Shown here: piece after piece, positions 1-64,000 of the stretch
Numbering within the stretch: position 1 is the first letter of the stretch
Layout of the letters: the number at the start of each line of letters is the position of its first letter
Assembly (NCBI RefSeq): GCF_026571515.1
Contig: NW_026860290.1
Span: 124,001-188,000 of the forward strand
DNA length: 64,000 nt
DNA from: Ruditapes philippinarum
Taxonomy: Eukaryota
Direction: 5' to 3'
Translations under genes and position numbers: made by a program
The notes under the pieces: model-generated
The model's input: only the letters and a program-made list of their open reading frames with translations
Told to the model about the DNA's origin: nothing
Databases searched by the model: none

Positions 1-171
1 ATATTTTTGTCTATCATTCATAAAATTGCCTTAGCTACAAATTTGGCCTTTGATTTATAGTGTTCTCTCAAGTACAATAAGATGTCTGTGATTTATATTG
101 ATGGGTCTGCTGAAAAAACATCATGCCTTTTAGTTCTATCTCTGCAAATAATGTTTTACATACTTTTTCAG

Positions 172-1218: not shown

Positions 1219-1260
<42 letters not shown>

Positions 1261-23350: not shown

Positions 23351-24126
23351 AATGGATAATTCTAGTATTTGATGTTTGTGATGGTAAGAGGCACAAATTC
23401 GTCACGTAAGAAAGACATTATAGTTTAAGATCGTTTTATGCAAAATAATCTTTAACGAACGACGACACTGAATTGAATGTGATCTCAAAAAACTTCGTAT
23501 AGCTAACTATAAGTGAACAATATATAAAAAAAATACAAATTGTAAATAATTTCATAGATAACATGCCTGTCATTAACAAATAATTAATGCGCAGTCTTTA
23601 AATATTCAAATATTAAGCTTGGTTCACAAAAATCCCTCATGTTATAACATATCATTAGAAGTAAAATATACATTGAATACATTTAGTAACAGGGGCACTA
23701 TTTTTCTGCTTGAAGTTTAACTTACTTAACAAGTATGTTAGTACATGTAATATTGTTAAGATACCAACAAAAAATATAACAATATATAAATACATTTTTA
23801 AAACATATGATAATTAGCATTAGTAAACGAACAATTTATGAAGAAGTGATGACATTTAATGTATATACTGCTATTCATGATAAAATGTGTACATGTATTT
23901 ACTTGTGAGCAATTAGTAGCACATTGTCTAGAATATATAAAACAACAAAATAAAATTTAACAATTAAAACACAAATTTGAATATCACAGATTTATCAAAA
24001 TATCACTGAATGTCTTCTATGCATTCAAAATTGATACTGAAGTTGACTTCTAGCACTTCCGGTACAATCATGTTGGCGCTCGAATAAAAAGTGAGTACTT
24101 TGTCTGACGTTTATCGGATACCGATT

Positions 24127-27100
24127 TTATTCCCATGCATTTTTCTTGTATACTGTTTGTGGTGATAACGGTGGTTTATCTAAATTGGTCTCTAAAATAA
24201 TATAAGCACCACTTGCATCTGTATACGCCACCGGATCAGCACGCGCATTTGTGTAAATTGGACTGTTGATAAACAAAAATAAATAAATGATAGACTAAAT
24301 TGGTCTACAAAAGGAACATTTTCCATGGAAAAATGTTAAAACAAACAATATAAAGGCGACATTAGGATATTTTCATCAAGTATGTCTTGAAAGAAAAATG
24401 TTGATTGAATTTTAAGTGGTTAAGAATGGATATTTATATGAATTTGTTATTACGTATGATACTCAATACTGTCACGGATGTAATATAAATCCGTAATACT
24501 GTCAACATAATTATTATATGAAATACCTTCCATAATGAAAGTGTCTGTTTTAAAAGCTGAAATTTGGAATGAAAACGTTGAATGACTGTGCCTAACAGTA
24601 ATTCTAAGTTTATATTTTATAAACATATTTTCATGTTCATTAACAATGTCATGATCTCATTTCATATCTTAGTTCAATCGTGATTAATTAGGTAATAGTT
24701 ATAGTATATAAAACGAGTTAGTTACAGGGTATAACACTGGCTGGGGCGACATCAAGGGGTGTTTCTGCTAAAAAATGGCGAGGCCGTCAGGCCGAGACAA
24801 TTTTTTTGCAGAAACATCCCGATTTTATGTTGTTTTTTTTTGCTACTGGGAATGGTCGTTACCACTGCCCCATTGGAGCCTCTATGAAAAAACTGTATTG
24901 ATATATACAAGGTGCGAAAAAAACTCGACCGATATATAACAGTCGAGTTTTTTTCCTATATGAATCAATGAAAAAACTGTACTGTTATATATCAATACAG
25001 TTTTGAAATGCTCATTGAAGTGTACTGAGTATAATGGGTTAGAAAGAACAAAGAAAAAGCTCACAGCCATGCGATAAATGCATGTTATATGATAGCATTA
25101 AGCTGTGTAGTTAGTAGTCACTTTTATTCTACAGTTGACATTGTCCAGTGGAGTAAGTTTATGTAAGAAGCAACTTCATTTCGAAGACAATTCAGTAAGA
25201 TTTAGGAGCAAACTGAAATGGGCTACTACATAGTAATTATATAATTCCGATAACTTGGCTCAAGCCGGTCAGTGAATAAAATAAATTAATGACTTATTCA
25301 TAAATAGTGGCGCCGGATGTAAAGTGTACCAGTGTTTGGATAGTAATTGGGTTGTGGATAGTTATGATATTTCTCCAGTTTCTTTTGGTAATCTAACGCT
25401 TTACTCCAATTTCATAAATCTTAACAACAGTGCAGCCGAGAGGAAGTCACAATCAGTATATTCAATTAATAATAGAAACAGTTTCCTGTCCATTTGTTTG
25501 CTACTGTGTGGGGATGTTCACCCTTGTCCAGGTCATGAAAATTGTAAGTGATTCAAAACTCTTGACAACCAGTACAACGTTTTTAATAATCGTGGACTCC
25601 TTTTTATACATGTGAATGTAAGAAGTTTACTTCCTTAGTTAGAGGATATTCGTATTCTAGCACATAAATCCAGTGCAGCATGCATAGGTATATCGGAATC
25701 ATGGCTAGATGTATCTGTTTTTGATTCGAAAATTCAAATCCAGAATTATAGTATCATTCGTCGTGACCGAGACAGGCATGGTGACGGAGTTTGCCTTTAC
25801 ATTCGTAGTGACTTAACTTTTAACACTAGAAGCGATCTACAACACGAGAAGCTAGAAGCGACGTGGGCGGAAATCCTTCTTCCTAAAGCTAGACCGATTC
25901 TTGTGGGCATTATTTATCGACCTCCAAAACAGTTGGACTTTATTGGCATTCTTGAAGACTTGTGCAATAGTTCTCCTCATTTTATTGAACATGAAACACT
26001 TATTTTAGGTGATTTTAACATTGATGTTTATAAACAAAGAAATAGGCCAGTGTGTGTTTTATCTTCTGCTTTTAGTACTTTTCTTAATATGTTTCATTTT
26101 AAACATTTATTTAATAAACACACCAGGGTGTGTCATACATCGTCTTCTACTATAGATCTTATTATTGTGTCTGACATAGACAAAATTTCTCAGTCAGGAG
26201 TCTTAAGTACATGTTTTAATGATCATTTTACTATCTATTGTACAGGAAAAGTTACTAAAAATTATGTTGGCAAGCATAACACTATCAAAGCACGTTCAAT
26301 GAAAAATTATAATAATAAGGATGATTTCCAGAAATCTTTACTTGCAGTTGACTGGTCTCCTGTATTATTATGTGACTGTGTATCTGAAGCTTGGAAACTT
26401 TTTAAATCTATTTTTCTAGCTAACTGTTGTTGATTACATTGCTCCTGTTAGGGAAATGCGTATTAAACAACGTACTGAAACATGGATTAGTCCAGAAATT
26501 TTTCAATGTTTAAATGATAGAGATAAAGCTTTTCATTTGTATAGAAAGAATAAAACTGATGAAAATTTTGAGAATTTTAAAACATATAGAAATAGAGCTA
26601 ATGAACTTATTTTTATGGCGAAAAAGAACCATTTTAATAATTCATGTGACAATCATAAAAATGATTCAAAGACCTTATGGAAATCCCTTAAGGAGCTTGG
26701 TCTACCATCTTAAAAGGATAATTCATCTTCTAAGAATAATATTGGATTAAAAATATGTGATGAAATTTGTTTTGATAAACAAAAGGTTGCTGAAGAATTC
26801 AACAATTTTTACTGTAATGTTGCATCAAATCTTACTCCAAAACTATCTCCAGCATTAAACATTTTTGGTAAACAGTTTGTATCTTCTTTTTATTTATCAA
26901 AAAGAATTATAATAATTTTTCTTTTTCATTGATGTCTGAAAAAAGTGTAATAAAGTATTTGAATAACAAATCCACTGGTCTGGATGGTATTCCTTCACGT
27001 TTTGTAAGAGATAGTGCATCTATTATTGCCTTTCCTTTAACAAACATTATAAATTTGTCATTGATACAAGGCACAGTACCAGATGATTTGAAGGCAGCAA

Positions 27101-30100
27101 GAATTGTTCCTCTTTTCAAAAAGAATGATAAAACTGAAGTTGGCAACTACAGGCCTGTTTCCATAGTAAGCATTGTTTCTAAAATTTTTGAAAGGGTTGT
27201 TTATGATCAGATTTATTCCTATCTTAAAGAAATGGACATATTATATAAATTTCAATCAGGATTTAGAGGTGGTTTTTCCACTGACACTTGTCTTACACAT
27301 CTATCTGATTTTATTAGGCTACATATGGATAAAGGTAATCTTGTAGGCATGATTTTAATGGATCTTCAAAAAGCATTTGATACAGTGTACCACTCAATCC
27401 TTTTAATGAAATTAGAAGCCATTGGACTAAGTACTGATGATTTACAATGGTTTAGGTCATATCTGTCTGATAGGCAACAACTTGTTGATGTATCTGGTAC
27501 TTTTTCCTCACATGAAAGGGTTACTTGTGGTGTTCCCAAAGGGTCTATCTTGGGACCATTATTATTTTTAATTTATGTAAATGATATGCAGGCTGTTGTT
27601 AAAAATAAACTTCTTCTTTATGCAGATGATTCTGCTATTCTTGTTACAGGTAAAAATAGGTCATCTATTGAAAAAGAACTGACAGATGAACTACATTCTG
27701 TCAGTCAATGGTTAATTGACAATAAACTTTCCCTTCACTTAGGCAAAACAGAGACAACATTATTTGGTTCTAAACATAGGTAAAAAACAGGTTCATCACT
27801 TCATGTCAGTTGTAAAGGGACTGATATACAGTCAATTTCTAATGTCAAATATCTAGGTGCAACACTTGATCAGTCTCTCTCCTGTGAAGCAATGGCAAGT
27901 TCTATTATTAAAAAGGCCAATGCAAGGTTAAAGTTTCTGTATAGAAAACGTGATCATCTCACATTTCACACTAAAAAACTTCTGGTTATCGCCCTCATCC
28001 AATGTCATTTTGATTATGCATGTTGTTTCTGGTTTCCCGGGGTTACTAAATACTGGAAGGATAAACTCCAAGTCACACAAAATAGATTAATAAGATTTGT
28101 TCTAAATCTTGGTTATAAGTCACATATTGATAATGAACACTTTAAAATTTTAAATTGGCTACCTGTCCAGAAAAGAGTTGATCAAATCATCCTATGTCAT
28201 GTTTTTAAAATAAAACATGGACTTGCCCCGGAATATATGGAGAAAACTTTATTCCATTAGATTCTGTTCATACTTACAGGACCAGGTCAAGTGAAAGTTG
28301 GTGTTATATGCTACCTAAGGTCAAAGGTTTCGGATCAAAGTCTTTTGTTTACAATGGATGTGTATTGTGGAATAAACTACCCTCTTCTATTAGGATGGAA
28401 TCAAAATTGTACAATTTTAAATTATCTGTTAAAAAACATTTACTAAATGGGTAATTTTCTCTTTTAAAGGTGTCTATCCTCTAGTCTTAATATTTATTAT
28501 TTTTATTAATTTATTTTAATTTGAAACTTTTATGTATACTATTGTCTTTCTTCAATTTAAAACTGTGATAAGTCATTTTCATGCATCTCTTTGTCAAAAC
28601 CATCAGTATCTAAGGACCACAATGGAAATAAGAGATTAAGTTCTCTTTCTTGTGTTATCCTTGGTATGATGTTTTTGTTATGGTGCATTTCTTTTACATT
28701 GATATTTGTTTTTATTGTTTTATCATGTATTGGATATGTTTTTACCATGTTATTACTGAATACTGAAATAAATCTATCTATCTATCTAGAGTAAACCAGC
28801 TGTTTCCACGTACGAAAATAGTTGTAATCCATTGCCTTTTTACGATGAATCTAGCAGCACTTGTTCAGATGGTGATTTTGAAACTTTAATAAAGCGCGTT
28901 GAAACTGTGCTCACCTATTGATGGACACAGACATACTTGTTTACTAAGGCATGCTAAAATGTCTTACTTGTAGTAGCTTTACAATTTCAACTTATTGAAT
29001 TTAGAAGATAAAAAAAATTCAGAAAAAAGTACCTGGAGTAGCCCAATCAAGTTCGACCAACAGTAAAAATTTATCAGTTTGAATAATTCTGATTGAATAT
29101 AATAAACATTAATACACTTTTGAGTATGGAATTTAATTATAGACATTATTTTTAGAAGTAACAGGCTTGAAAGGTTGTATATGTAAGAATATAGCTGTAT
29201 AACATATAAACAAAGTCAATGGGTGATTAAACTGGCAAGTATGATAATTATATTCCTTGTTTATAAGCTTATTGCATAGATTATCAAACACTGATTACAT
29301 AGTTTTTCGGGAGGGGAATAAGAATTTGGTGAAACCTAAAATGATAAGTTACAAGTTACTTTGGCTATATTTCAAACATATTTTCACTGAAAACAAATCA
29401 AAACATTGACGTCACATTATATAGATATGTGATTTCAAAGTGAATTAAACTTGTTAAGGTCGTTCATCATAGGTCTATTAGTATACACGTCTAGCTTTCA
29501 ATTCGAGCCCCGGGATTTAATCAAGTCGGGTGAGGACATTTTATGATGGAACTCACGAGTAAAATATTCATTATCTTGTTGGTGGAAGGAAATATAACAG
29601 TACGTTAGTGTATATATTTCATATGCTCTTTTCATTTTACATTTCAGTTATTTTATTATATACTTAAATATAAATACTGTTGATGTTGACGTGTCGCAAT
29701 AGTCGTCATTGTAAATCATTTTGTAAAACTGGCAAATATTGTGCAATTAACTACAAATTTTGTTGTTGTGGTTTTCCTGTTTGTGAATATTTGATAATAT
29801 TGCCAGTGGAAAACAATATAAAAATATTCAAAACACTTTTAGTGTATTTCTCCTATGTGAGCCCTGTCATATGCTACGACTATGGAAATGACAACTGGGT
29901 TAATTACTTACAATTTATTATTACTAAAGTACATGAAATCACAAAATGAAGCTATTTTGTATTTAAAACAATTTATATGTAAACTTACTTATTGTAAGCA
30001 CCATGATAGTCATCCAAATGTTGACGCCTCCTCTCAACCGAGGCATTTAGTTCTTCTTCAAAAGTTCTGAAATGGCATGATTAGTAAGGGAGAAAACAAT

Positions 30101-33100
30101 ATTATGACGAAAAATCACGGTTTAACCAAAAACGGTATGGGTATTTGATAAACTTAGAAACGACGTAATGTGCATCTTATATGATAAAACTTTTTTCATT
30201 AAATTGTACATACAGTAAAGTTAAAATATTTAAGCGCAATTAAACGTGTCTAGACTTGTGTTCTTATACAGCTCAAATATGTTTTGAATTACATAATTCC
30301 CGACGAGCTTATATTTTAAGTTAATACATTAATGTAAGAATACTTACGTCGGACGAAACTTTTTATTGGCATTAGTAACCGCATTGTCGTGATGTGTGTT
30401 GTACATGGTGTTATAAGCATAGGCTGGCTCCACGTTACTGCGGAAAACAAGTGTTACAATTTTTTTCTATTGCTGTGTTATTTCGAGGCATATACAGGGC
30501 TTTTTTTTGTTTTAACTCTCATTTTCTTTAATACGAAACAATTATTAGCTTTGGAAAATACTGCATCGAAAGTTGATGATGGCATACTTATGGCATGTCA
30601 AATGAGCGTGGTTTTCATTTTTGTGTTTGTTTTTTAAGCAGGGAGGTAGTTGGTCGAAAAGTTGTAAGGTCGAAAACACAACAAGTTTTTTTTACCTTTT
30701 TCTGTTTCCGTACTTTCAACTCTTATAGTAATAAATTTCAAGAAGTGAAAGGGCGAAAACACAACAAACAGTGCTTTTGGTATGTTTATCCCCCCCGCCC
30801 AATTTCGCCCATGTGGCACGAATATACTACTATGGAAGTTATTCACATTTGGAAAACAATATATCCTAGAATATAATTAAGTGATTTGGCCTTGTTTTTA
30901 ATATTCCCATATATTCATATAAATTAACGTTCACAATTTACGAAAGTAAGCCTAAATTTACTATTATGAAATATTATAAATGCGTTGAATATAGGAAAAT
31001 AAAATATTGTCACATTTTTATGCCTTTCTTTATTGAATACAGATCTACCTATTAACTAAAAACATTCAGGTACGCTTTTTTTGGTTTTGCTTCCTATGTC
31101 TTCTACGTTATATTTCTCTGTTACCACCAAAGTTTGATAAAGATGAAATATGTACAACTATGCTTTGACTGATGAAAACATATTTGTTGTTGTTTAAAAT
31201 AACAGATACAAATGTTTGGCAAACACTATTTTTTGATAAGATTAAGTTTAATAATGTAAATAAATAAAAAAATAAATAAATGAGTGGATGGGTGGCTGGG
31301 TAATAAATAAGTAAATAAATAAATAAATCAAACACAAAACAACAAACATATTGTAAGATCATGACAGTACATATAAAAGCATACCTCATTTGAAACCTTT
31401 CATTTGAATTTACGTTACCAATGTTGTTAGATGTGTTATACTGGTTGTTATGACCATCGGGTTGTACTCCACTCCCCCTGGAAAATATTTAGATTATTAT
31501 TTGTCGAAATAGCACTCAAAGACAAGATGTTTTTAGCAGACCCAGCAAAATAAATCTAAGACATCATATTGAACTTGAGAAAACACTATAAATCAAAGAC
31601 AATATTTGTAGCAAAGGCAATATTATGAATGAAAGACAAAGCTATTATACCAGAAACTACACGTTTAATCAAAAAGCAACATTACTGTACCAACAAGATA
31701 TTGTACCAGAGGAAACACTATAAATAAAAAACAACATGTTGTAGCAAAAACTACACTACTATAAATCAAAGAAAATATATTGTATTAGCATCATATTATA
31801 AAAAGGCAAAATTATAAAACCAATGCAGCATATTGTACCTAGGACAACACTGTTATTATCGAAGGTTACATCTGAAGCAGGAAAAGCAATATTGTAAATC
31901 AAAGATAACATAATGTACCAGAAACAACACTACAAAACAAATAAAACATATTGTACCAGAGACATTTCTATAAATGAAAAACACGTTGCACAAGAAACAG
32001 CGCCATGAATGAAAGGCGACAAATTGAAGATAAGACAGCACTATTAAACAAAGGCAACATATCTTAGCAGAGACTACAGTTAAACTCAAAGGGAACATTA
32101 TTGTACCAGACACATCACTATGGATAAAAAGTAACATACTGTACCAGAGACAACACAAGAAATGAAAGGCAACATATTGAGGATGTGACAACACTATTTA
32201 TCAAAGGCAACATATTGTACTAGAGAAAACACCATAATGTATAAAGCAAAGGCAACACATTGAACCAGAGGCAACACTATGAATATTGAAGACAGTATAC
32301 AGTAGAAAAGACAACACTATCAATCGAAGGCAAAATATTTAATCAAAGGCAACATATTGTACGAGAGAAAACATTTTTCATCAAAGCAACATATAGTGAC
32401 AAACACTATAAATCAGAGGCAGCATATTGTATCAGAAACAGCACTTTAAATAAAAGGCAACATATTGTATCAGAAACAACACTTTAAATAAAATGCAACA
32501 TATTGTATCAGAAACAGCCCTTTAAATAAAAGGCAACATATTGTATCAGAAACAACACTTTAAATAAAAGGCAATATATTGTACAAGAGACAAAACTATA
32601 AATCAAAGGCAACACATTGTACCAAATACAACATCATTTAATCAAAGACACCATATTGAAACAGAGACAACGCTATCAGTTGAAGCGTAAATATTAAATC
32701 AAAAGCATCATATTGTACTAGACACAACACTATATTTTAAAGGCATACTATTGTGAAAGGGACAACAGTTTAAATTGAAGGATACATATATTAGAGGAGA
32801 CAGAACTATAAATAAAAGGCAACAAATAAAATAAAATGATTTAAAAAGTTTAAGTTCCACAATAGCTATTTGGCATGTCATCTCGTTATTTGCATACTTT
32901 ACATTAGCTTAAATGCTTTGAATAATTAAGTCTTATTGAAATTACATGGTAGACAATGGAACATTTTGTCTTAGCTTCTAACATTACCCCAAATATTTTA
33001 TATTACATTGCTTTTATTTCTTAAAAGCTTTATATTTTGGTACCTTGTTACAGTTTCCTAACAGTTACTGATTAACTATATCGCTGAACCATTATCTGTT

Positions 33101-36100
33101 TCTTTTGCATTTAGGAAATAAATACAATAATAGTGATTTAGTATTTCACATGTAAGTATAAAATCAACACTTTATTAACGTTTGTCTTCTTTTACGAGAC
33201 ATTATTTCACATTCATCAATAGTTTCATTAAACGATATTCGTTAAATATGATCTAAATGCATAATCCATACTGCCCTTCCTTATGAAATAAAAAAATCGT
33301 GAGTGTAAATGTGCCTTTGATGGCACAGGCTTTTAAGGCCTAGACAATTCTAAAATTATACACTACCTTTTCTTTAACCGGTAAACAATTCCTACAACTG
33401 CCAGAATTATAAAGAAAGTTCCAACCACAATAATGATTATGTACAGAATCAAATTTATTGTGGTGTCTTCCTCGGGTTTCTCAACTGTAAACACAATTAT
33501 AAGACAGTATATATACTTACAATAACTTATAACTAATCAAACTTATTTTCATAGTGAAATTGTACTACATGTATAAAACGTTTCATGACTAACCGATTCG
33601 TCATTCCCATAGTTAGCATTATGGTTCATGTACATCATAATAGGTTCACTGTGTACATTATAAATGGTTCGAGATGTGTATCATAAAAGACCAATTGTGT
33701 ACATCATAAATGTTCATGGTGTACATCATAAATGGTTCGAGGTGTATATCATAAAAGATCCATGATGTACATCATAAAAGATTCATAGTATGTATCATAA
33801 AAGGTTCATTGTGTACATAATTAAAGATACATGGTGTAAATCATAAATGTTCAGTGTGAACATCGTTATACACGTAACAACATAAAATATTTTCATTTGA
33901 AAGAGCTTGATTTGTAAGAATATATGAAAATTGAAATAGCAGCTTATGCATCTTGACCAGCTGTCCGATAATTCATAGTCTTCATGGATTTTTTTGACAT
34001 GATCGTGTTATGCAATAATCTATAAAAATAGTTATTTTAAAAATGCCGGACTAACAACCACAGACAGGGGGCGCAGCTTAGTCTTGACTGATAGACACAC
34101 GTCTAGGTGGTGGGTGATGGCACACACACACCCATGACTTTTTTATTTTTGGATATGTTAAATGCAATAAACACGGTCAGGTGATTATTAGAAATTAATA
34201 TAGACATAAATTTATTTTTACTTTATTAGAAAAAAGTGTTGACCGTGGCTTGCGCGGCTTTTTAGGAAACTAGGCTTCTCTCTTCTAGGACAAGTTGTAG
34301 CTGTATTATCATCTTTATTTTTGTCATTGTCGATATAATTATTATATTATTATCCAATCTTGTCTGTTACATAGCATAAAATAGAATACAAATCTTTGAG
34401 CCCCTTGTCCCTTTTCAACCATTAGTTTACTTTATAAAAACATACATATACTGTATATACAAGCTATAAGGAAGACCGTCAGTTTTGGCAATTTCATCAT
34501 TGAACTTACCATTGCAATGTATGCTGTCTCTAGACATAAGTCCGGCAGTGGTCCAGCCATCAGGACATTTCTTGCACGAGGGCTGTGCTTCCTCGTCCTG
34601 GTAGTAGCCTCGAGGGCAGCTCTCACAGTAGTCGTTAGTGGCATATGTTCCCTTACCACACGATACTAGAGGTCAACAAGTGTAAAAATAAAATCTCAGT
34701 TAAAATCTTTTCTTTTTTTGTAGAAATGAAAAGTTCTTTACCATTTGGCTTACTTGGGTAACCCATGCAGAGCAACCCTCTGAGGAGAAATAATCTGTTT
34801 TGAAAAAATATTATAAATTATCAATGAATTAAATCTTCTGGAGCCTCTCAGAAACAAGCAAAATCTGTGTCTTTCAATCAAGGGAAATTGGTAAGTAGAA
34901 GTTGTATATTTATTTTAATCAAATATGTTAAAATTACGACATATCTATATATTTATCACGATGTTTTTGTCAATTGTTCATGTCTGATTTATTCACCATG
35001 CCTAAGTCTAAATGGAAATGATCTATTTGTGAAAATTTGTGATTAGCTCTAATCATCTATACAATGTGTTCATTTCTAAATGTGAATACCCAAGTTATCA
35101 CATAATTTTGAAGTAGACCTAGGCCTAAAATAAAATAGTTTGTTTCCACTCTCCAACCCCCCCCCCCGACACCTACCCATAAAAATCACTGCTACCTTTT
35201 TATTGCCAAACAAAACAAATTCTTTTATTTTATTATCATGCAAGTAAAGCCAACCTGTCAATATTATTCACATCTTTATATCTGTCTCATGTTGTTGTTG
35301 TTTTTTTTCATTTTAAATATTGCAGACTTATATTGAATACAACTTTGAAACTTTGGTTTTATACTTTTAATAAGTAAATGCTATTAAGCATTCATATTCT
35401 TAAAAAAAAGATATATATCTAATTCAGATATAGATCTAAGTACAATTTGGTTCAATACAAAAAAAATAGTTCGGACAATGCACATACCTACCTACCCTAC
35501 TAAAACTGGAATGCATGCGTCGCGGATAATTTTAAATATGGCCCTATCGTCAAATCGTTCTATTTAAAAATGTTCTTACCACAATACTGCCAGACGGATG
35601 CATATCCAGGCTCGCACTCAGCCAAACCGTCCAGGTACGTACTGTTTACACCAACGTCGTAGTCAACGCCACCATATTGTATAGTGAACGCTAGATTTTC
35701 TACTAATGTGTTAAAAATAGTCACTATCTCAGCCAGGTGGTCATAGCAATTGTCTTTTCCTGAGAGAAAACAAAATTATTTCGTCATTATAACGTCATTA
35801 TACGGAAGCATCCTGGTGCCAAATTAACATGTTCTATAAAAGAGATAACTCCTACGTAGGAAATAAAGAAGTTTTATTAGGAGTTTAAAACTCCTACGTC
35901 ATGTGTAGGTGATACAAACTACTTATTAGGCTTTTTTTATTTCGTATAGGAGTAGAACATGTTAAATGGCACAAGGACGCTTCGGTATCATTACTACATT
36001 ATGTTGAAACTAGGTTCAGAAATATTTCAACAAAGAAGTCCCACACATTTATCTAAAAGGTAGATAGCTGTTATAATCGCGTGTCAAAATCAGACGTATA

Positions 36101-43400: not shown

Positions 43401-46400
43401 AGCTGAGCAGGGCGGGGTACCAGTTGCAGAGTAGAAGCCAGGTTCACAAGCGTCTGAAAAAGTGGTAGCATTTTAGTCACGTTTTCTGATGATGTATTTA
43501 CAAAAGATATATTATATATATGCAAAAATTGTGAAAGTAGTTCCTCATACAAATTGATATTTTGACAAATGTGTTGACATTTCAGCTCCTTATTCTACCA
43601 GTGTTAGATACAGAAGATACAAAAGTACATGTATGTACAGTTTTGAATACTTGTTCGCGAATAATATAGCTGAAAACATTCAGGTAAATAAAAAAATATG
43701 TTCTTACATATTCCCGAGTTAAACCTTAAGTTTTATCCCCCAAAACGATATTTTATTTCTTAAAAGCTTTATATTTTCGTTGTTCTGTAACAGTGTTAGT
43801 AACAATATTCATTGACCGTTTAGCTGAACCATTATCATTTAATATTTTGTTTGGTTTGTCTTACTTTGCTTACGTTTTGCTACTTTTATTATGAAATATT
43901 TATCATTTCGCCTTCGCTTCGTTCACATGATAAGCATATAACATGCTCTAAATTCATTATAATTATAATCTTATGAATCAGAGTTGCCTTTTTCTTCAAT
44001 TTAAAAGTCCTTTTAGAAACAAATCATTACTTGAAGGTAAAATTCTGACATAGTCAGCAAATACACTACCTTCACACTGAGCTGCAGAGTTAGCTCCCGT
44101 AGTTTTGGTGGTTTTGCCGGTAGGACATTGCTTGCACGTGCTTTGTTTAGGCTCATCTTGATAGAAACCACGTGCGCATGCGCTGCAGGTGTTACCATCT
44201 ATGTCGTGGAAATATCCGACGCTACACTTAACTGAAAAAATGCACAGCATCAATTACTGGTAAACAATAAAAAAACACTTTTTGGCCGTATTTACAAAAT
44301 GACAAATTATAGAATAAGAATACCTATGAAGTCTTTTGGCGAAATAATGAGTATCTTTCATTACAGGCACACTAAGTCTCGGAAATAATTATGTTTATGT
44401 TCGTATCAAGAGAAAACATATGTTTATTTGTGTGCTAGTATTTAGGACATGTTCGGAGCTGATATAGCACCTAATGTCAATCAATTATTATAAACATAAC
44501 AGAATGCAAACAAATTGATATTTTGACTTCCATACAAAATATTTAGTCTATATTACTGCTCTGATTTCCAATACACAAAAGAATCTAAATTGAATTGGGC
44601 TACATGGCCAATTAGTACATATGTTTTGCTAAATTGTAACATAACACGAAAGTTAAAAAGACGAAAGGTCATTTACCACACTGCATTGTTGCTCTGTCAT
44701 AAGCACTTCCGGTTGAACATTCGCCCTCGATATGAGAAACGCTGGTTGTCGGGGACTCGGCCGAGAAGCCATCAATTTCCAAATTGTAGTCACCGTTCTC
44801 GGTAGCCTTAGAAACGGAATTCTTAATAGAATTTCTAGTAATTGCCTTTTCCGTCGCTGACAAGTCGTTTGAGAGTTCTACTGTCACTGTGAACGTAATT
44901 GTCGGGTCAGTGCTTTTTCGTTTTCTGCTTGAATCCCCAATTCTGTTTCCGCAAATGATCTGTCATTGATAATTTCATTAATTTAATAATGATTATGTTA
45001 ACGTAATTGACATTTTACGTTAAATTTATGCATTTTTCTTAACTTGTTTGAAAATTGGAAATGATTAAGTCAAGGATTTAACAAAAGCTGTCACAGGAGA
45101 AGTGCGCCCCATTTTTTCACACCTTTCTTTGTGGTGGAATAAATAAATAAATTAATAAATATATAAATAAATAAATAAATAAATAAATAAAATAAAACTT
45201 AAAATAAATAAATAAATAAATAAAAGTAAAGCTAAAATTAATAATTAGATAAAAAAATAAATAAAACTTTAATAAATAAATTAATAAANNNNNNNNNNNN
45301 NNNNNNNNNNNNNNNNNNNNNNNNNNNNNNNNNNNNNNNNNNNNNNNNNNNNNNNNNNNNNNNNNNNNNNNNNNNNNNNNNNNNNNNNNNNNNNNNNNNN
45401 NNNNNNNNNNNNNNNNNNNNNNNNNNNNNNNNNNNNNNNNNNNNNNNNNNNNNNNNNNNNNNNNNNNNNNGACAGAGCATTTTGGTTTACAGTCTTGTCC
45501 AGTGCCTTTATTGAACGCTTCAATGAACTTATTTTTTATATCTTCTCTAGCCTCGTCACAAGGTCCATCATAGTAATAGTACTCAAACTCGAGTTTTAAG
45601 ATAGTCAATAATCTTTCATTATCAACCTCTGTTTAAATAAATACAAAAATTTGTTTATAATGAGACTATTTTTGTTATGTTATACGGCTTCATCAAAGTG
45701 TATCATCTCAAGAAATGTACAATGTCATGATTTTGAATACTCAGCCATGCTTTTTCAGCATATCAGAAAAGTCTACAGGGTACTCAAAGGTTTTAGCTAA
45801 TTTATACAACAATATCAAAATTTATTGATTGTTATTGTGGTTAATGCAACATTTTTGTGTATAAACACATTCAGAAGCATGAGAACGCATCTAAAGCCTT
45901 TAAATGCGTTCTGATGCTTTTGCGGATATTTATTCAAAAAAATAATGTGCATTTAAACTGTTCTTGTAAATAAAAATGTCCTTCTGGCGAAAGCACTGTA
46001 TCTAGAAAGCACTGTTTGTGCTCCACGTGCTAGTGCGATGCCATTTGACAGGTATGTTTAAAAAATGAACTGAATTGGCCGTCATTGCATCGAAGCTGTT
46101 ACAACATCGCGCAATGGATCAAGAAAATCAATAACGGTGCAATTACGGCGCGTGACGCGCCACGAGAATCTTTCGGTTCATGCATGTTTTCTTTTCCGTA
46201 AATAAGTTGTCATGACCGCATTACTTCAGTATCTTAAAAAAGGAGTTCTTACTGACTAAATATACGTTTATCATAATCATACAATTAAACTCTAACTCGG
46301 TCTTGACGAAATCTTTTTCTATGTAACAATAAGAGCATCGAAATACGAGGCTATCTGATTTGTACGAGTGCTTTGATGTTCTTTCTCTTTTGTATTATAG

Positions 46401-53288: not shown

Positions 53289-53922
53289 TCAGGCCAAGAC
53301 GATGCGATGTCGGTAGACTAAATATCGCATTTAAGCCCCGACTTCTATTATTAACAAATTAAGACTCGGGCCACCCTTAACGACCGTTCCGCCTACATTT
53401 AAAAAACAAGTTATAAAACCATATCAAAAGCATGTATATCACTCAGTCTTATCAAATTTCAAAACAAAATAAAATATATTTCTATTTTCTTTTTTTTCGT
53501 TTTGCAAAAATATGTGTTATTTTTAAGCAAATGGTTAACCACATCATATTTTCTTTTCAATATTTCTTTGCTAAAGAACAGGTAATATTTATGGTATTTT
53601 GCGAGACTGTATTGCATTACACATTGAAACTTAATACTTTGCTGGAAACCCAGTTCATGTAATAGCGAAAATACCCTAAAATAGTACAAGAAATGTATAG
53701 CCACTTCTTTAATACAGTTACTTTAATCGATATTTTATCAGGGGAGTTAACAACAAAACGTTGGCCTTTATTTTACAAAGTTTTGTGGATTTCGGTTCTT
53801 AACAGAAATACTGCCTACCTTACTTGTCTAAATACAATATTTATCCATATCATTCATAACACTATTAAAGCATGTTCAATCAAACAATAACTTAAATACA
53901 TTTTCTGACAAAATCTGCCTAC

Positions 53923-54024
53923 CTTGAAAACGTCCAGTACAGGGGTGGAGGTGGATGCGATGCTGTATACCTAAATCCAAGGGCTAAATCCGGTAAAATA
54001 TATCACATAAAATTGACTTTTATA
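53923..54024 (-). promoter_or_regulatory. Candidate TATA box and non-coding first exon of the receptor gene
   Basis: TATAAAA on minus at 54024-54018. Donor AAG|GTAGG at 53923/53922. The ATG exon has an acceptor at 52426-52425. Confidence 0.45.
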
Positions 54025-54603
54025 CACTTTATCTCATAAAATGCTTCGTGTATGATTATTTAAGGCCAACTATACGCCAAGAAATGCTTTGAGTTTTATT
54101 CCAAAAGATACTCGTTGGCCTATTATTGAACTGTTGTTGGTAATTAGTATTGTACATTGATTTCAATTAGTATTTTGTACGGAAGTCAAAATACTATTAA
54201 TTGTTTACATTTTGCTACTTTTATGACAAATAATTTCCCTTTCAGTGCTATTTTCTTCCGAAAATAAGCATCAAAAATGATCTTAAAAGTTAATATATTA
54301 TTCAGCCTCATGTTTTTCCCTTTAGAAGAAGAAAAATAATGACTTTCTGAGGCATTTTGTACCTTTCAAATAATGAGAGAATAATGGCGATCACGGTGGT
54401 TTTTGTTTAGAAATTTATGTTATCAAATAGTATATCTATTTTTATATTATTCGGAACCATTTGGAACACTCTTAAACACTTAGATGGCGAATATTTTTGT
54501 GTATCTTTGGGCGTTTAGAAATCATTATTATTCACAGTAGCAAAATTTGTTTCATAACATGGAAGCGCTTCAGAGACTCCTTTTTATGAACGCATTGCAA
54601 GTA

Positions 54604-55760
54604 CACGGTGCATATCCATATCGGTACCCTCTTTGCGAAATCTGCTGAAACGACACCCTCTTTGTACATGCACAGGCCACTCTCTGCTCAAAACAAACCA
54701 GCGATGAATAACAAGCCAGTAAAAATTCATTGTAATAAGGAAAGGAGGTATGACACGTGGAAAAGATGTATACCACGGAACACTAGAATGTTTTATCTAT
54801 GTGCTGATTTGTCATGTGCCCGTTTTTTATGTACTGCAACTTCACAATAAGCTACAAAAAATCGACATGTCTTACCTCGCCCATCACCTCGACATACTTT
54901 TCGGGCTGAAATGAACATGTGGCTTGATTATATATGCATCATACATATTTAATATGTTCATATACATATCATCTTGTGACAAATGGCAGTACATTGTCCA
55001 AAATAAATGTAAAATTCATAAAACACCCTACTTTCGATTTTTGCAGCGGCACGGGCTACCTCTCTTCATTTGAATTTTTATATCACAGGTACCCTCTCAT
55101 TTTAAAACACACATAGGTACACTCAATGCACGACATATGCTTTTATTTGCGTTAATCGTTAAGTATGTTATATTTACATAAAAGTAAGAAATATTACATA
55201 CTTAACGATTAACGGAAATAAAAGCATATGTCGTGCCTTGAGGGTACCTATGTGTGTTTAAATATGAGAGGGTACCTGTGATATAAAAATTCAAATGAAG
55301 AGAGGTAGCCCGTGCCGCTGCAAAACCGAAAGTAGGGTGTTTGTATGAATTTTACATTTATTTTTGACAATGTACTGCCATTTGTCCGAAGATGATATGT
55401 AAATGAACATATTGAATATGTATGATGCATATATAATCAAGCCACATGTTCATTTCAGCCCAAAAAATATGTCGAGGTGATGGGCGAAGCAAGACATGTC
55501 GATTTTTTGTAGCTTATAGTGAATTTGTAGTACATGAAAAACGGGCACATGACAAATCAGCACATAGATAAAACATGCTAGTGTTCCGTGGTATACATCT
55601 TTTCTACGTGTCATACCTTCTTTCCTTATTATATTGAAATTTTACTGTATGGTTATCCATCGCAGGTTTGTTTTTAGCAGAGAGTGGCCTGTGCATGTGC
55701 AAAGAGGGTACAGTTTCAGCAGATTTCGCAAAGAGGGTACCGATATGGATATGCACCGTG
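54604..55760. mobile_element. Non-autonomous fold-back DNA transposon with Transib/RAG-like ends
   Basis: Arms 54604-55175 and 55189-55760 are reverse complements (>90% by eye) around a 13-nt loop. Termini CACGGTG...CACCGTG. 5-bp direct repeat AAGTA at 54599-54603 and 55761-55765. Confidence 0.85.
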
Positions 55761-58309
55761 AAGTATTCTATTTTAATTTTATCATTGTGCATACAAACAG
55801 ATTTTTCTCTCTTTATTTTGCAATGAAAGATAGATGTGTACATGTACATTTATTTGTAGTCGACTTGTTCTATTTAATATTTGAACACGTGCACTTTCTG
55901 TTTGTGATAATAAAATGATGTATAAATGCAGGTTATCTTATTCTTATGAGTATATAAAATGAAACCCAACCCAGAATCAATCCCATATTCTTTGCCCTTT
56001 CCGTCAACAATTTCGGATACGATAGTAAGAATTCACGGAACGGATACAGTATTTCGGTCTTACACCACTATGCTAAAACGAATTGTAATTTATTACTGAG
56101 AATTGTTGACCTCATTTGTTCCAATACATAAGGTAAAATCCCACTAAATTAATTAAATTTTCAGACAGAAAAGAAAACAACAGTACATTATTAATATACA
56201 TATAATTATGGTTTAGTTTAGGAAACCGGAAGTACAAAGTGTCTGCCTTATAACATTAATTAAGATTGTATATCATTGTGCATTTTTAAATTAATTATGA
56301 TTGTTAGACATATTTTTAACCATATTATTACAGATATCGTCCTTTGGATGTGAAATGTATAAATTCGTTATATATTATCAAATATTACACCCTTTGTTTA
56401 AGTTTACATTTTAAACCAAGTGGCAAAACTTCTTTTAATTGGGTGGTGGTGGTTTTTTTGGTAGCCACAATAAATTTACCAGAGCAAAGTTCAGCCACTG
56501 CATCGTTCCTTGGTAAGCTGTCAAGCCGGTTACCAGTACTAGTTGCCTTCACTTTTGCATGGAACTAATAACTTTTGTACATGATAGAGCAGAGGTTTCA
56601 CAGTCCTATTGGATTAACCGATGGCTTACTTTCAATCCGAGGTTTTTATGAATACTAGTCGAGGAGTTCCGGTTGGAAATACATTTATCAAAAACAGGAT
56701 ATAGTGGTGATTTTATTATTACAATGTATGCATTCGGCATATATCAGCTACTTCAAGAAAACATATCCATTTATACTCATATTTACTTGAAATGTGTACA
56801 TATAATCATAGTCATACGGTTTTTTTGTTTTTGTTTTATTTTTTTTTTTTTTTTTTTTGATATTTTGATTAAATAAAGAACACATGTTTAGTTTTAAACG
56901 CAGGTAAAAATATTATAACTAATCCGACTGAAAAAGGTAAATAAATGGGGCACTTGAACAGAATAAAAAGAAATATGCTCAGTACATGTATTGTCTTTAT
57001 GAGCCCGATTTGAGTTAAAAAGCATTTAAAAGCTATTCATTTTTATGTCATTATACAAAATAAAATAAAATGTTTTGTAAAAAACTGGGTGAGTGAATAA
57101 TCTGAAATTTAGCGCACAAGTTATGTGCTATATAATACATCAAATTGAATAAATAAATATCAAAAAAATAAATTGCAGTCCCGTCAGTGGATTCTCTTTA
57201 AAATGCATAAGATAACAGTAACCACATCCGTGAAGATAACAATTTCTTATGACAATCCATTGATATATTATGTTGCATATCTTGTCATTTTTAAGAGAAT
57301 ACAAAACATAATCTTGTGCAGTATCTTGTAACACAATGCGTGCTATTACAAATTTTGCTGGTTTTATTATGTAAACCTAAACCAAATGTACATGATAGTG
57401 TTTACCTACTTAACATAAACATGCAAAAAAAACGTTGACAAGCAGCAATAGTTTCAAGTTTAACTGTTTTTTATCCAGTAACATCCTGAATACGAGTTTT
57501 TTCTGTTGTTGTAATTGTTGAAGTTTTAAAGCGGCCTTCATGCTTTATTTTCTGTTTGGGTAAACTATTCTGTGTTGTTTCAAACTAAGTGTTTCATTAA
57601 TTTTATCTATTAATTAATTTGGAAAAGTTCATCATATCACTGTTAAGCCCGATAATCCGTCGTCCCTAAAGCTATTTTTAACGCGAAAGAGACGTTCGGA
57701 AAGAAAATCGTCTGCTTTACTTTTTTGAATATAGAGAGTCGATCGGTAGATTAGAGGTATCGATGGGTTTCCTCAGCAATTTTCTTTTTCTACCTTTTGA
57801 TTTAACAATTATATGAAATGATTTTTCTAAAGATAACATAATCAACCTTAAAAAAAGTTTAAGTCTGCTTTAAGTAACACCGACACTGTTACAGAAATAT
57901 ATATGTCGACTTTCCAACATTACTGCTTGCTTGTGACCTTCTTTGTTCGTCATTTCATTATTTCAGGCAAGATTGTTTGTACGAATAAAACCGCCGAACC
58001 TTGCATGAAAGTAGCAGCAGGGAAACGAGCCCACAGTAATGAGGTGTAAGCAAACAAACGTTAAGGCCATGATAACCCAGGTACTATATTAAATTTTGTT
58101 TCATGCTAACCTACAAAATTGACATATTAACGTTTTTCTCCATTATTTTAATATGTCACTCACATCTGCAGACGTTCAAACATTAAGATATACACATGTT
58201 GTTATATTTATTTGTTACCATAACATATAATTTGACAGTTTATAAGTGCTAAAATACTGTTTGAAATACTTCGATAAAATCGTAATTATAATTTATGTTA
58301 ATATTATTG

Positions 58310-59156
58310 GCAAATCATATTCATGGTTATTATTGATAATTATCATTTTGATGACAAACTCATTGTTATTTCTCTCATCATCACCTTAGTTACCATAATT
58401 ATCAATATTTACACATTTATTTAGGCATGATAATAATATGCATTTCTTTCAAATCTGATTTTTATCATTGGAATGGTTATCATTGTCATTGATAAAAATA
58501 ATAATGAGCATTTTTTTTCTATTATTATCATTTCTTTAATTATCAAAAATGATAATACCATCATAATGATTATTATCTTTTTACATATTTATGTATGCTC
58601 CTGTTATCATTATCAGCATAATCATCATTATCATCATTATGTTATTTAATGATGATAATTTTATGTTATTTCTATTATCGTTTCTATAATATATCTCAAC
58701 TATATTTATGTCGATGATGATAATCAAGGTTATCATGCTCATATCATGTTATTTCCATGATGATGATGATGATGATGTTGATTATCATCATTATCATCAT
58801 CAACAGCAACAATAAAACCACAACAACAACAACGACATAAACAACAACAACATCATCATCATCATCATCAACAACAACAGCAACAATTAAACCACAACAA
58901 CAACGACAACATTTACAACTACATCATGATCATCATTTACTATTTCGTTGCAAAATCCAAATACATACCAGTTATCATTTATTTTTTCATTATCTTTATC
59001 CACATTATTATCAATGTTACAGTTTTCATTGTATTTTTCAATAATCTATTTTAATTACAGTACAGTTCATTTTGCGTTGTTGTAATGTTTAAAGCAAATA
59101 AACTGTATTATAATTGGTAGCATTATCGTAACAAACATTTTCATTTATTCACGCAT

Positions 59157-60119: not shown

Positions 60120-61550
60120 AGACATTCTGTACTACTTTCGTTTTCTCAATGTCGAGCTGAAATGTTGTGTTAGCAAATAGTTTAAACTTATAAGGAATGT
60201 TGAGCTGAGATGTGTCGACGGAACGACATTCAGCACAACACCCAACATAACATAAGAAAATAAATTAATATGAAGCTGACACAACATCTGGCACAACATT
60301 TGGGAAAAAATGCTTAATGTAAAGAGTGTGGAACTGACTTTTGAAGCTTGTACGAAAGTTAACACAACATGTAGAACGTTATTCATAACTTAATGAATGT
60401 CGACCTGAGATGTGAAGCTGAAAACTGCAATACATTCACGGTCTACCTCTAGCACAAAGTTCAAATTGTATCAAGATAATGTCATTACTGCAAATATGAT
60501 GCCAAATTTATTGATAACAAAACAGCTTGCAATTCTAAACTTGCCGTTGATTACATGGAACTCTACCCTATGTTATCACTCATGATATCTTTTTACAAAT
60601 TTAATTTTTATGTTTCCTGCATATCTGACTGGTTTTTGTAATACGGAATCTTGTTTTCGCCATCGACTTTCTTACTTAAGATTTATACAAAACTGGAAAT
60701 TATGCACGTGTTTTTAGTTACAAAAAATCGCAAAACTTGACTTTTTTCACACGATAATTTTCAGAATAATTTCGAGTTTTCGATCCAAATTTTGTATCGA
60801 AAAGAAAATAGATATTGAAAATGCGGGAGATAATATATTTACTTGAAATGTTTTAGTATTCTTTTGACACTTGTTATGCACACTTCAATTTAACGACACA
60901 CAGTGAAGTCGGTAGAAATTAGTAATACCATATGGTAGATATTAGTAATAACATACGGTAGAGGTTAGTAACAACATACGGTAGAGCTATAAACAACATA
61001 CGGTAGAGATTAGTTATAACATACAGTATATATTAATAACAACATACGGTAGAAATTAGTAATAACATACTGTAAAGATTAGTTATAACATAGGTAGAGA
61101 TAAGTAATAACATAGGTTGATATTAGTAATAACATAGGTAAGAATATTTATAACATACGGTATGGATAAGTAATAACATACGGTAGAGATAAGTACATGT
61201 AATAACATACGATAAAGATTAGTAATAACATACGGGAGAGATTAGTTATAACATACGATAATTCTTTATACGAGTGTATTTTGAAACAGTTGAGCCGGAT
61301 TTTATGCTGAATGTCGTCAAGCTTTGCATGTTGGCTCGACATTCAATTTAACATATTTTGCTGGATGTTGTGCCAGTTCGACACATAGTAAACAGTTTCT
61401 ATGTTGTGTTAAATTTTGAGCAAAATATCGTGCAAACTTTACCTCTCAGCTCAACGTTCATTGAAGTTTGAATGTTGTGCTGATCTGGTTTGCTTACACA
61501 ACATTTCATCTCGACAAGTCACATAGAGAAATCGAAAGTCATGCCGAATG
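60120..61550. mobile_element. Old inverted-repeat element with an internal 23-bp tandem array (60910-61260)
   Basis: tgtcgagctgaaatgttgtgttagcaaa (60150) matches the reverse complement of 61489-61516. Internal unit cggtagagattagtaataacata. Confidence 0.6.
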
Positions 61551-62453: not shown

Positions 62454-64000
62454 ATGTTTGGCTATATAGCACTGACCTTGACCTCGCTGCCCCTTTTATT
62501 GTTTTATGGAAGGAGCACAGAGGCGGTTCTTGCAGACACATGGACTTACTGCGAATGCTACTGGGCAGACTGGGAAGCCTGGAGTGAGTGCAACAATGAT
62601 TGTTTTGGACAGAGGTAACAATATACTTAAAAATTATAAATTATGAAATAAGTTTATATTTACACATGAAATCATAATAATGTTTTTAAACACATGTCAG
62701 ACATCATTTCTTTGATATTCTAACATATATTTAAATTGGTATACAAATTAAAAATTTCACTTACAAATACAATATAATTACACTAATAAAAATAAAACGT
62801 TACACTTATACGACTTAAAAGTCACACTAATACAAAACATAGTTACGCTTATACAAATAAAAATTTACACTCATACAAACGATAAATGATAAAGTACCAA
62901 TTAGCAAAATACAAACAAATTACAATCATACGTAACAGAACATGTTGAACCATTACTATTGTCTCAAATAGTAAAAGTATTTTAGTTGAGAAGAATAATG
63001 GTTTTGAAATACCTGTATTGTAGAGTTCAATGTTGAATAAACTGTGTTTGACTTCCAAACATCTAATACGAATAATTACGAAAAATAAAAGGTTGTATAG
63101 AAATGACAATAAATAATAAATAAATAATTTGAAAACACCAACAAAAACCTTTTATTAACAAAGGGTTCGTACTCGTTCCGTCTGGCTGACAGAGAATCCC
63201 GGATGTGATGAGTTCACAGATTGTGCGTCAAATGACGAAGGTTCTAACTGGCAGGACTGTAACAATGTTTGCTATAATGGAGGTGTGGCCTCAGGATCCC
63301 TCTGGTCACCGTGCACGTGTCAGGCCGGATACACGAGCAAATGTTGTACTGATAGTAAGGAATTTGTCTTATTATTTGTTTTCATTATGCTTTTCACATT
63401 CCATAACATAACATAACATACATTACATGTATAATATAATACTGTAAATATTCTCTAAGAACAAATATATTATTTTATGTTATATATTTCGTTATAGACC
63501 AGTTAATTGATGAGTTAATTTAAGGCACATTTAACCTGAAAATGCTATAATTATTTTTTTTCCCAAAAGCTTAATTGTTGGTGTACTGATATAGTTTCAA
63601 GACAAGTATAATCATCTGCCAGAAACCTGGGGCATAGTTTGCTTCTTAAACGTTTTGGCAATAAATTCAGTTACAGTTTTTTAGTACTTAAAATGACAAG
63701 CTTTTTAACAAATGGACCGAGGTTTACTTTCCTTGCCATACATAAATAGCTCATTTGCATTAAGTGCATCTTTCTTAAGTGTCGCAAATACATGTAGGAG
63801 ACATATACGGAGAAAAAAGCAAAAATATTTGACTTTCAGGGAACAAACTGATGTGAATATATATGTTGTATAATTATCTAAAACAATATTGATAAAAAAA
63901 CATGATGGTTTATTGTTTTACAGTTGTGAACTGTGGTACCCCTAGTTCTATATCTGACGGGTCGTTATCTGTGACGTCAACAAACTATGGCGGCAGAGCG
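62454..64000 (+). CDS. 5' part of a secreted or membrane protein: signal peptide-TSP1-EGF-Sushi (continues beyond window)
   Basis: Exons 62454-62614 (MFGYIALTLTSLPLLLF...CYWADWEAWSECNNDCFGQR), 63164-63354 (VRTRSV...CNNVCYNGG...CTCQAGYTSKCC) and 63924-64000 (VNCGTPSSISDG...). GT-AG, with phases 2 and 1 compatible. Confidence 0.85.

What the first reader, a model, noticed from the sequence alone, without database searches (positions are those of the whole stretch)
54599..55765. 1.16-kb fold-back element with RSS-heptamer-like ends and 5-bp TSD (Transib/RAG-like)
Seen: two 572-bp arms around a 13-nt loop, ends CACGGTG/CACCGTG, flanked by AAGTA on both sides. Known: CAC-initiated heptamer-like termini (RSS heptamer CACAGTG) with 5-bp TSDs characterise Transib and RAG-like transposons; Chapaev gives 4 bp and CACTA 2-3 bp. 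No RSS nonamer is seen at 12 or 23 spacing and there is no transposase. Inference: a possibly undescribed non-autonomous family made entirely of one end duplicated head-to-head, implying a Transib or RAG-like transposase in this genome. It lies ~580 bp upstream of the candidate receptor TATA box and could form a cruciform or long dsRNA.
Basis: partly seen in the sequence, partly recalled or inferred. Interest (0 to 1): 0.75.

Follow-up and report, generated by a model that had tools for sequence, protein, structure and literature searches.

The report
Palindromic Transib-type transposon in a clam
This is a real, gene-less, 1.16-kb mirror-image piece of DNA from a many-copy family in a clam genome, missing at this spot in one of four sequenced samples; it is likely a jumping element moved by a Transib-type enzyme, but that enzyme was not found and a specific link to the RAG antibody recombinase is not supported.

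Summary
Observation confirmed. Window 54604-55760 is a 1157-bp fold-back: two 572-bp arms, 93% alike, a 13-nt loop, CACGGTG ends and AAGTA on both sides. It is one copy of a repeat family: depth over it is orders of magnitude above the flanks in 4 of 4 public runs, and one run holds an empty allele with AAGTA once (2 bases shorter than a clean empty site). At 4 of 5 listed sites the family letter equals the opposite arm, so the family itself is likely palindromic. No coding relic (0 of 12 frames in Pfam). The host is most likely the Manila clam. CAC ends plus a 5-bp duplication fit Transib/RAGL best, and bivalve hAT5 ends (CAG) do not fit. The end fails the published protostome RAG-like consensus (7 of 17), a bivalve Chapaev-3 end is as heptamer-like, and target duplications of other copies and the parent transposase were not obtained. 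Verdict: a new non-autonomous family of a known kind, probably Transib-mobilised (about 0.55); an undescribed P-like/zinc-finger lineage is the open rival. Interest 0.3.

The parts
54599..54603 (+). left target-site copy AAGTA
   Evidence: retained once in the empty allele (X5 record 19 aligns to 54603)
54604..55175 (+). left arm (572 bp), starts CACGGTG
54623..54661 (+). outer pair of the repeated GGTACCCTCT motif (arm positions 20 and 49), candidate protein-binding sites (inferred)
54638..54642 (+). AAATC, partial match to the Transib nonamer at a 23-bp spacer; weak
55088..55125 (+). inner pair of the GGTACCCTCT motif (arm positions 485 and 513)
55176..55188 (.). 13-nt non-palindromic loop; a one-base-longer variant stands in one high-depth contig in 4 of 4 runs
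   Evidence: (table 4, place 55179)
55189..55760 (-). right arm (572 bp), same end and the same four motifs (55239-55248, 55267-55276, 55703-55712, 55732-55741)
55761..55765 (+). right target-site copy AAGTA
   Evidence: absent from the empty allele
54018..54024 (-). context: TATA-like box 580 bp from the element, upstream of an SVEP1-like sushi/HYR/EGF gene whose start codon is at 52414; promoter role untested

Best explanation
This is one gene-less, palindromic copy of a many-copy repeat family in a clam, likely a non-autonomous cut-and-paste DNA transposon that was likely moved by a Transib-type transposase made elsewhere in the genome. Shown: the anatomy, the repeat family, an empty allele and the lack of coding sequence. 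Inferred mechanism: the borrowed transposase binds both identical ends (terminal CAC heptamer, helped perhaps by the repeated GGTACCCTCT motif), cuts the element out by the nick-and-hairpin route described for Transib and RAG, and joins it to target DNA with a 5-bp stagger, which duplicated AAGTA here. Inferred origin: a parent with long ends lost its interior down to a 13-nt spacer, or one end was copied back on itself at a short inner stem; the two routes are not told apart. The master copy would have had near-identical arms, and this copy has since drifted about 3% per arm, so it is an old insertion that is still polymorphic.
For: Only a 5-bp flank repeat fits. X5 record 19 joins 54603 to 55771 with 3 letters between; a 5-bp duplication predicts 5 letters, no duplication predicts 10. 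Depth over the element in X5 is 85,000-390,000 against 66-78 for flank contigs, and similarly raised in 4 of 4 runs; one contig with a loop variant has depth 425, 13,150, 4,506 and 985 against flank contigs of about 2.6-4.6, 173-213, 66-78 and 18-34, which suggests tens of copies or more of that variant alone (my inference, the tool gives no copy number). A different copy (X7 record 27, 15 other letters in 155) begins exactly at 54604. Family letter equals the opposite arm at 4 of 5 listed sites. Internal deletion derivatives, one shared by 4 of 4 runs (55246 to 55316), as expected of a MITE-like family. Motif repeat exceeds 200 of 200 and 199 of 200 shuffles at 1 mismatch. Literature passages: Transib has CAC ends, 5-bp duplications and non-autonomous families (PMC1131882); CA..TG ends with 2-5-bp duplications mark the CMCT clade (PMC12730594); CMC elements give 2-4 bp (10.64898/2026.08.26.747230); HzTransib has long TIRs and a 5-bp duplication (PMC1852546) and little or no nonamer likeness (PMC4840297). 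Bivalve hAT5 consensuses begin CAG in 9 of 9 shown, of 16.
Against: No parent transposase and no second full-length copy was seen; duplication length rests on one locus. The empty allele is 2 bases shorter than a clean empty site and its 3 letters were not shown, so a repair footprint after excision is not excluded. The end has 2 mismatches to the Transib heptamer consensus CACAATG and G instead of A at consensus position 34. The target AAGTA is AT-rich, whereas Transib and RAG favour GC-rich targets. Transib ORFs are nearly absent from molluscs in one survey (1 of 14,275 DDE elements; PMC10294476). End sequence and duplication length vary within Transib and should not override transposase homology. 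The motif excess vanishes at 2 mismatches (28 and 34 of 200 shuffles reach it). The filled-allele junction contigs carry only 25-28 element letters, below the tool's 31-letter rule for bridging, and no listed contig spans the loop with both arms. One of 5 family letters (54992) does not follow the opposite arm.
Confidence: 0.55

Rival explanations
1. The element is the shrunken derivative of a P-like or otherwise undescribed transposon lineage with CAC ends, a 5-bp duplication and a separate zinc-finger helper gene; the GGTACCCTCT repeats would be the zinc-finger sites.
For: Unchecked earlier notes only: another CAC/5-bp fold-back with a zinc-finger relic (e1-9599724, e1-9534187) and a fold-back traced to a P-like transposase (e1-9181860) in this genome, and a Transib-ended element with a P-like fragment elsewhere (e1-7275726). 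Here: a spaced internal motif, an AT-rich target and a poor nonamer. P-superfamily Galileo is a known fold-back element (listing and abstract start only, PMC4168063).
Against: No zinc-finger or transposase relic in this element (0 of 12 frames); no sequence likeness to those other findings; described P elements give 7-8-bp duplications (recalled).
Confidence: 0.2
2. It belongs to Chapaev, Chapaev-3 or EnSpm/CACTA, with an atypical or chance 5-bp repeat.
For: These share CAC..GTG ends. The 2 curated bivalve CMC consensuses begin CACTGG and CACCGTG, the second as close to the RSS heptamer as this end. CMC types are reported across mollusc genomes.
Against: 2-, 3- and 4-bp duplications all fail at this site; the empty allele fits 5 bp better than any shorter length.
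Confidence: 0.1
3. It is a non-autonomous derivative of a RAG1L-RAG2L (RAGL/ProtoRAG) transposon.
For: CAC plus 5-bp duplication; RAGL transposons and a few non-autonomous forms occur in oysters and pearl oyster (PMC7204232).
Against: 7 of 17 positions of the protostome consensus match, and the conserved AAA at 8-10 is absent. Described RAGL ends are short and, in RAGL-A, ProtoRAG and AanRAGL, asymmetric, not 572-bp mirror arms.
Confidence: 0.07
4. The palindrome is an assembly or library artefact, or a local inverted duplication that is not mobile.
For: No listed contig spans both arms; junction contigs fall short of the 31-letter rule.
Against: Arms differ at 38 columns, which a copied read would not; a flanking 5-bp repeat, an empty allele, family-wide depth and a multi-copy loop variant in 4 of 4 runs.
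Confidence: 0.02

Closest known systems
Transib superfamily and its non-autonomous families (TransibN1-3_AG, Transib-N in sea urchin, Hopper/Kodama; PMC1131882 passages; 10.64898/2026.08.26.747230 passages)
   Same: CAC-initiated heptamer-like ends, 5-bp duplication, no coding capacity, many copies
   Different: Heptamer has 2 mismatches to CACAATG; nonamer only half matched; AT-rich target; 572-bp arms leave only a 13-nt spacer, whereas Kodama is a central deletion with 37-bp TIRs; host is a clam
HzTransib of Helicoverpa zea (PMC1852546 and PMC4840297 passages)
   Same: long TIRs, 5-bp duplication, heptamer likeness without nonamer. I recall that its end begins with the same seven bases as this element; recalled only, not found in the texts searched
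   Different: autonomous, 3518 bp, insect host, GC-rich target; no sequence comparison could be run
Protostome RAGL transposons of oysters and ribbon worm (PMC7204232 passages and supplements)
   Same: CAC start, 5-bp duplication, bivalve host
   Different: consensus CACTWMCAAACKTYKBB matched at 7 of 17; no RAG1L/RAG2L relic
Bivalve Chapaev-3 and hAT5 consensuses (PMC10294476 supplement file 24)
   Same: Chapaev-3: CAC ends, one equally heptamer-like; hAT5: 5-bp duplication (PMC12730594)
   Different: Chapaev-type duplications are 2-4 bp; hAT5 ends begin CAG in 9 of 9 shown
Fold-back elements such as Galileo (P superfamily; PMC4168063, listing and abstract start only)
   Same: long inverted arms, internal repeats, many deletion derivatives
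   Different: different duplication length (7 bp, recalled); parent enzyme known there, unknown here

Membership tests
Non-autonomous TIR DNA transposon | terminal inverted repeats with a flanking duplication | tested here: met
Non-autonomous TIR DNA transposon | many copies and an empty site | tested here: met
   raised depth in 4 of 4 runs; empty allele in 1 of 4
Non-autonomous TIR DNA transposon | no transposase gene | tested here: met
   0 of 12 frames hit Pfam at E up to 1
Transib | 5'-CAC terminus | tested here: met
   one other copy starts at the same base
Transib | 5-bp target duplication across the family | tested here: inconclusive
   met at this locus; other copies not obtained
Transib | CACAATG-like heptamer plus AAAAAAATC-like nonamer at 22-23 bp | tested here: inconclusive
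   5 of 7 and 5 of 9 letters; chance 27% for the nonamer count; HzTransib also lacks the nonamer
Transib | GC-rich target preference | tested here: inconclusive
   single site, AAGTA, AT-rich
Transib | autonomous partner with a Transib/RAG1-core transposase and the same ends | not testable with these tools
   no genome held; 0 matches in four collection scans
Transib | Repbase rule: same duplication length and positions 1-11 within one mismatch of a classified member (PMC4455052) | not testable with these tools
   Repbase and Dfam are not held; published end alignments are figures, not text
RAGL (protostome) | consensus CACTWMCAAACKTYKBB with AAA at 8-10 | tested here: not met
   7 of 17
RAGL (protostome) | RAG1L/RAG2L genes or relics | tested here: not met
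Chapaev / Chapaev-3 / EnSpm (CMC) | 2-4-bp duplication | tested here: not met
Chapaev / Chapaev-3 / EnSpm (CMC) | CAC..GTG ends | tested here: met
hAT5 | CAG-type terminus | tested here: not met
   third base is C here; 9 of 9 shown bivalve hAT5 begin CAG; hAT third base is G
P superfamily / Galileo-like | 7-8-bp duplication (recalled) | tested here: not met
P superfamily / Galileo-like | P-type transposase in a long relative | not testable with these tools

The most novel reading that the evidence does not exclude
Clams carry an undescribed cut-and-paste lineage with RSS-like CAC ends and 5-bp duplications whose enzyme is not Transib (P-like, with a zinc-finger helper that binds spaced internal repeats such as GGTACCCTCT) and which repeatedly spawns near-perfect fold-back families. 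That would break the rule that CAC ends plus 5 bp mean Transib/RAG, and would force many 'Transib-N' calls in invertebrates to be rechecked.
Probability: 0.2. Interest if true: 0.6.

Novelty: new member of a known kind. Interest (0 to 1): 0.3.

Why it matters
As it stands it is an ordinary kind of object: a gene-less, high-copy TIR family. It matters modestly because Transib ORFs are almost unreported in molluscs (1 of 14,275 DDE elements in one survey), so an abundant CAC/5-bp family in the Manila clam points to a transposase still to be found there, and its ends are a ready probe for it. The presence/absence polymorphism 2.2 kb upstream of an SVEP1-like gene gives a simple test of a regulatory effect. 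If the parent proves not to be Transib, the end-based classification rule fails, which would interest transposon and RAG-evolution specialists.

Tried and rejected
No whole genome is held. Exact scans for end patterns found 0 matches in metagenome contigs, prokaryote genomes and viral contigs. No look-alike among earlier scan windows. No second copy in the window; a scan for CAC..GTG pairs with 14-bp ends at up to 2 mismatches gave only this element with a 5-bp repeat. Pfam on 12 read-through frames: 0 hits; PDB sequence search of the longest open stretch: nothing under E 0.6; Rfam on 53500-58500: 0. Double insertion of two elements rejected: no end sequence at the centre. hAT5 rejected on the third base. 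A special conservation of the outer 48 bp rejected (P about 0.04, longer clean run inside). No A-to-G or CpG bias between arms (14 transitions, 22 transversions). RNA: two runs guessed to be RNA hold 0.35-0.38 of the words and four RNA runs hold 0.05-0.06; none was laid, so they are no evidence of transcription. The HzTransib end sequence was not found as text (PMC6872938 is not held). Literature searches: searches showed no description of this family. Supplements searched for its motifs without a relevant hit: PMC10294476 (first 12 files, then files 24-27 and 33; long sequence runs are cut in storage, so mainly the first few hundred letters of each entry were searchable), PMC7204232 (9 files, file 9 cut; only internal chance hits in the 4 places shown of 12), PMC9435367 (1 file), PMC4840297 (5 of 6 files). 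Repbase, Dfam, figure-only end alignments and the closed bioRxiv supplements (Table S2 of the Nozomi preprint) could hold a matching family.

Full report
Observation. The element runs from 54604 to 55760 (1157 bp), with arms 54604-55175 and 55189-55760 around a 13-nt loop. The arms differ at 38 of 573 columns. Both ends read CACGGTG inward. AAGTA stands at 54599-54603 and 55761-55765; of flank lengths 2 to 11 only 5 matches, with a chance of about 0.002-0.003. Folded as RNA, the element is one hairpin of -914.8 kcal/mol, which follows from the palindrome and shows no function.

Host and neighbourhood. No genome is held. Sixteen runs of one coded organism hold 0.35-0.51 of the words of 53400-57000. 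The minus-strand exons from 52414 downward hit HYR, sushi, ephrin-receptor-like and EGF families. Its first coding exon finds a Ruditapes philippinarum protein at 86%, and a member of that cluster named SVEP1-like (P0009) matches 11 of 19 listed exon pieces at 100% and the rest at 74-98%. The host is therefore most likely the Manila clam; the organism name of that one row was cut off. The element lies 2190 bp upstream of the start codon and 580 bp from a TATA-like box on the minus strand. Whether that box is the promoter was not tested.

A repeat family with an empty site. Contigs of 4 of 4 runs, from four samples and four studies, were laid on 53800-56600. Summed depth over the element is orders of magnitude above the flanks in every run (X5: 85,000-390,000 against 66-78 for flank contigs). 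The sum is no copy number. A cleaner lower bound is one contig carrying a one-base-longer loop, with depth 425, 13,150, 4,506 and 985 in the four runs against flank contigs of about 2.6-4.6, 173-213, 66-78 and 18-34; I read this as tens of copies or more of that variant alone. X5 record 19 (depth 70.6, like the other flank contigs) aligns to 54231-54603 and 55771-56048 with 3 letters between. It lacks the element and the second AAGTA. A clean 5-bp duplication predicts 5 letters there and no duplication predicts 10, so 5 bp fits best, with a 2-bp shortfall. That haplotype differs from the window at 26 letters and 24 gap positions over 373 bp of left flank, so a small indel is plausible, but an excision footprint is not excluded, and the 3 letters were not shown. 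X1 and X7 hold contigs that run from flank into the element end, but with only 25-28 element letters, below the tool's 31-letter rule. One other copy (X7 record 27) begins exactly at 54604. The tables were cut (103 joints and 2182 loose ends not shown), and duplication lengths at other copies were not obtained.

The palindrome belongs to the family. At 4 of the 5 element positions listed in table 3, the family's letter is the one the opposite arm carries; the fifth (54992) is not. The master copy therefore likely had near-identical arms, and this copy has drifted about 3% per arm (Jukes-Cantor 0.066 between arms). Deletion derivatives are common, one shared by 4 of 4 runs, and several joints go back 22-44 bp near the end, which suggests local expansion of a subterminal unit. 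A motif GGTACCCTCT occurs four times per arm, at positions 20, 49, 485 and 513. At one mismatch this exceeds 200 of 200 (left) and 199 of 200 (right) dinucleotide shuffles; at two mismatches it does not stand out (28 and 34 of 200). Five contigs in X5 leave the right arm 13 bases after the loop and continue in sequence that is not in the window, and two listed contigs have unaligned letters before the loop. These may be a non-palindromic parent or an insertion; they are the lead for deciding between one-end duplication and internal deletion. No frame of the element hits Pfam (0 of 12) and Rfam finds nothing.

Which enzyme. From passages read: Transib has CAC ends, a CACAATG heptamer, an AAAAAAATC nonamer, 5-bp duplications with a GC-rich preference and non-autonomous families (PMC1131882). 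CA..TG ends with 2-5-bp duplications mark the wider CMCT clade (PMC12730594), and CMC elements give 2-4 bp, although both traits vary within Transib and should not override transposase homology (10.64898/2026.08.26.747230). This end matches the RSS heptamer at 6 of 7, the Transib heptamer at 5 of 7, the Transib nonamer at 5 of 9 (23-bp spacer; chance 27%) and the protostome RAGL consensus of PMC7204232 at 7 of 17 without its AAA block. HzTransib has long TIRs and a 5-bp duplication (PMC1852546) and little or no nonamer likeness (PMC4840297), so a missing nonamer does not count against Transib; that its end starts with the same seven bases is my recollection and was not confirmed. In the curated bivalve library of PMC10294476, hAT5 entries begin CAG (9 of 9 shown, of 16) and the two Chapaev-3 entries begin CAC, one as close to the RSS heptamer as this end. 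The heptamer is thus not diagnostic; the 5-bp duplication carries the Transib call. Against it stand the AT-rich target and the rarity of Transib ORFs in molluscs (1 of 14,275; the word does not occur in the hard-clam genome paper PMC8905726, listing and one passage). PMC9435367 (whole main text), PMC4411706, PMC8289069, PMC4455052, PMC6004678 and 10.1101/2023.08.20.553239 (passages) were used for definitions only.

Earlier notes. Unchecked notes report a second CAC/5-bp fold-back with a zinc-finger relic and a fold-back traced to a P-like transposase in this genome, and many Transib-ended gene-less elements in other invertebrates judged ordinary. I could not test them; they raise the P-like rival and lower the surprise.

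Mechanism, committed. Shown: anatomy, family, empty allele, no gene. Inferred, about 0.55: a Transib-type transposase acting in trans binds the two identical ends, excises by nick and hairpin, and integrates with a 5-bp stagger. Rivals: undescribed P-like/zinc-finger lineage 0.2, CMC 0.1, RAGL 0.07, artefact 0.02, the rest other groups. Cruciform formation, double-stranded RNA and an effect on the SVEP1-like gene are possible and untested.

Verdict. Real; a new non-autonomous family of a known kind, not found in the searches named under Tried and rejected, with Repbase and Dfam unchecked. Interest 0.3; 0.6 if the parent proves not to be Transib.

Noticed in passing
window 6-10047 versus 19468-31640: Large inverted segmental duplication in pieces, 70-84% alike; a short-chain dehydrogenase exon lies beside it at 10131-10436 minus (Pfam E 2.9e-6).
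   Followed up: partly
window 25639-28260: Broken LINE (endonuclease-like and reverse transcriptase frames; RVT_1 E 1.4e-29) inside one side of the inverted duplication.
   Followed up: partly
window 54165-54258 and 56432-56600: Two other high-copy repeat fragments flank the element; the second has three copies in the window (9513-9643, 19862-19993, 56463-56596).
   Followed up: no
window 54427-55534: One contig of run X3 (depth 280) joins left flank 54427 to 55534 with 6 letters between: a possible deletion allele that removes the left arm and loop, as hairpin instability would.
   Followed up: no
window 55760 to 55464: One X3 contig runs from the element end into internal position 55464: possible insertion of one copy into another, whose partner junction would give a second duplication length (table 5c).
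   Followed up: no
window 62454-62615 and 63165-63356, plus strand: Exons of a second secreted-type gene (signal-like start, weak TSP1 hit E 0.13, EGF-like cysteines by eye) that points away from the SVEP1-like gene; the element lies between the two.
   Followed up: partly
window 6260-6840, 22666-23349, 31895-32671, 33629-33864, 60910-61257: Minisatellite arrays with periods of about 84, 38 and 23 bp.
   Followed up: no
window about 45290-45470: Assembly gap of Ns (182 N in the window) inside an intron of the SVEP1-like gene.
   Followed up: no
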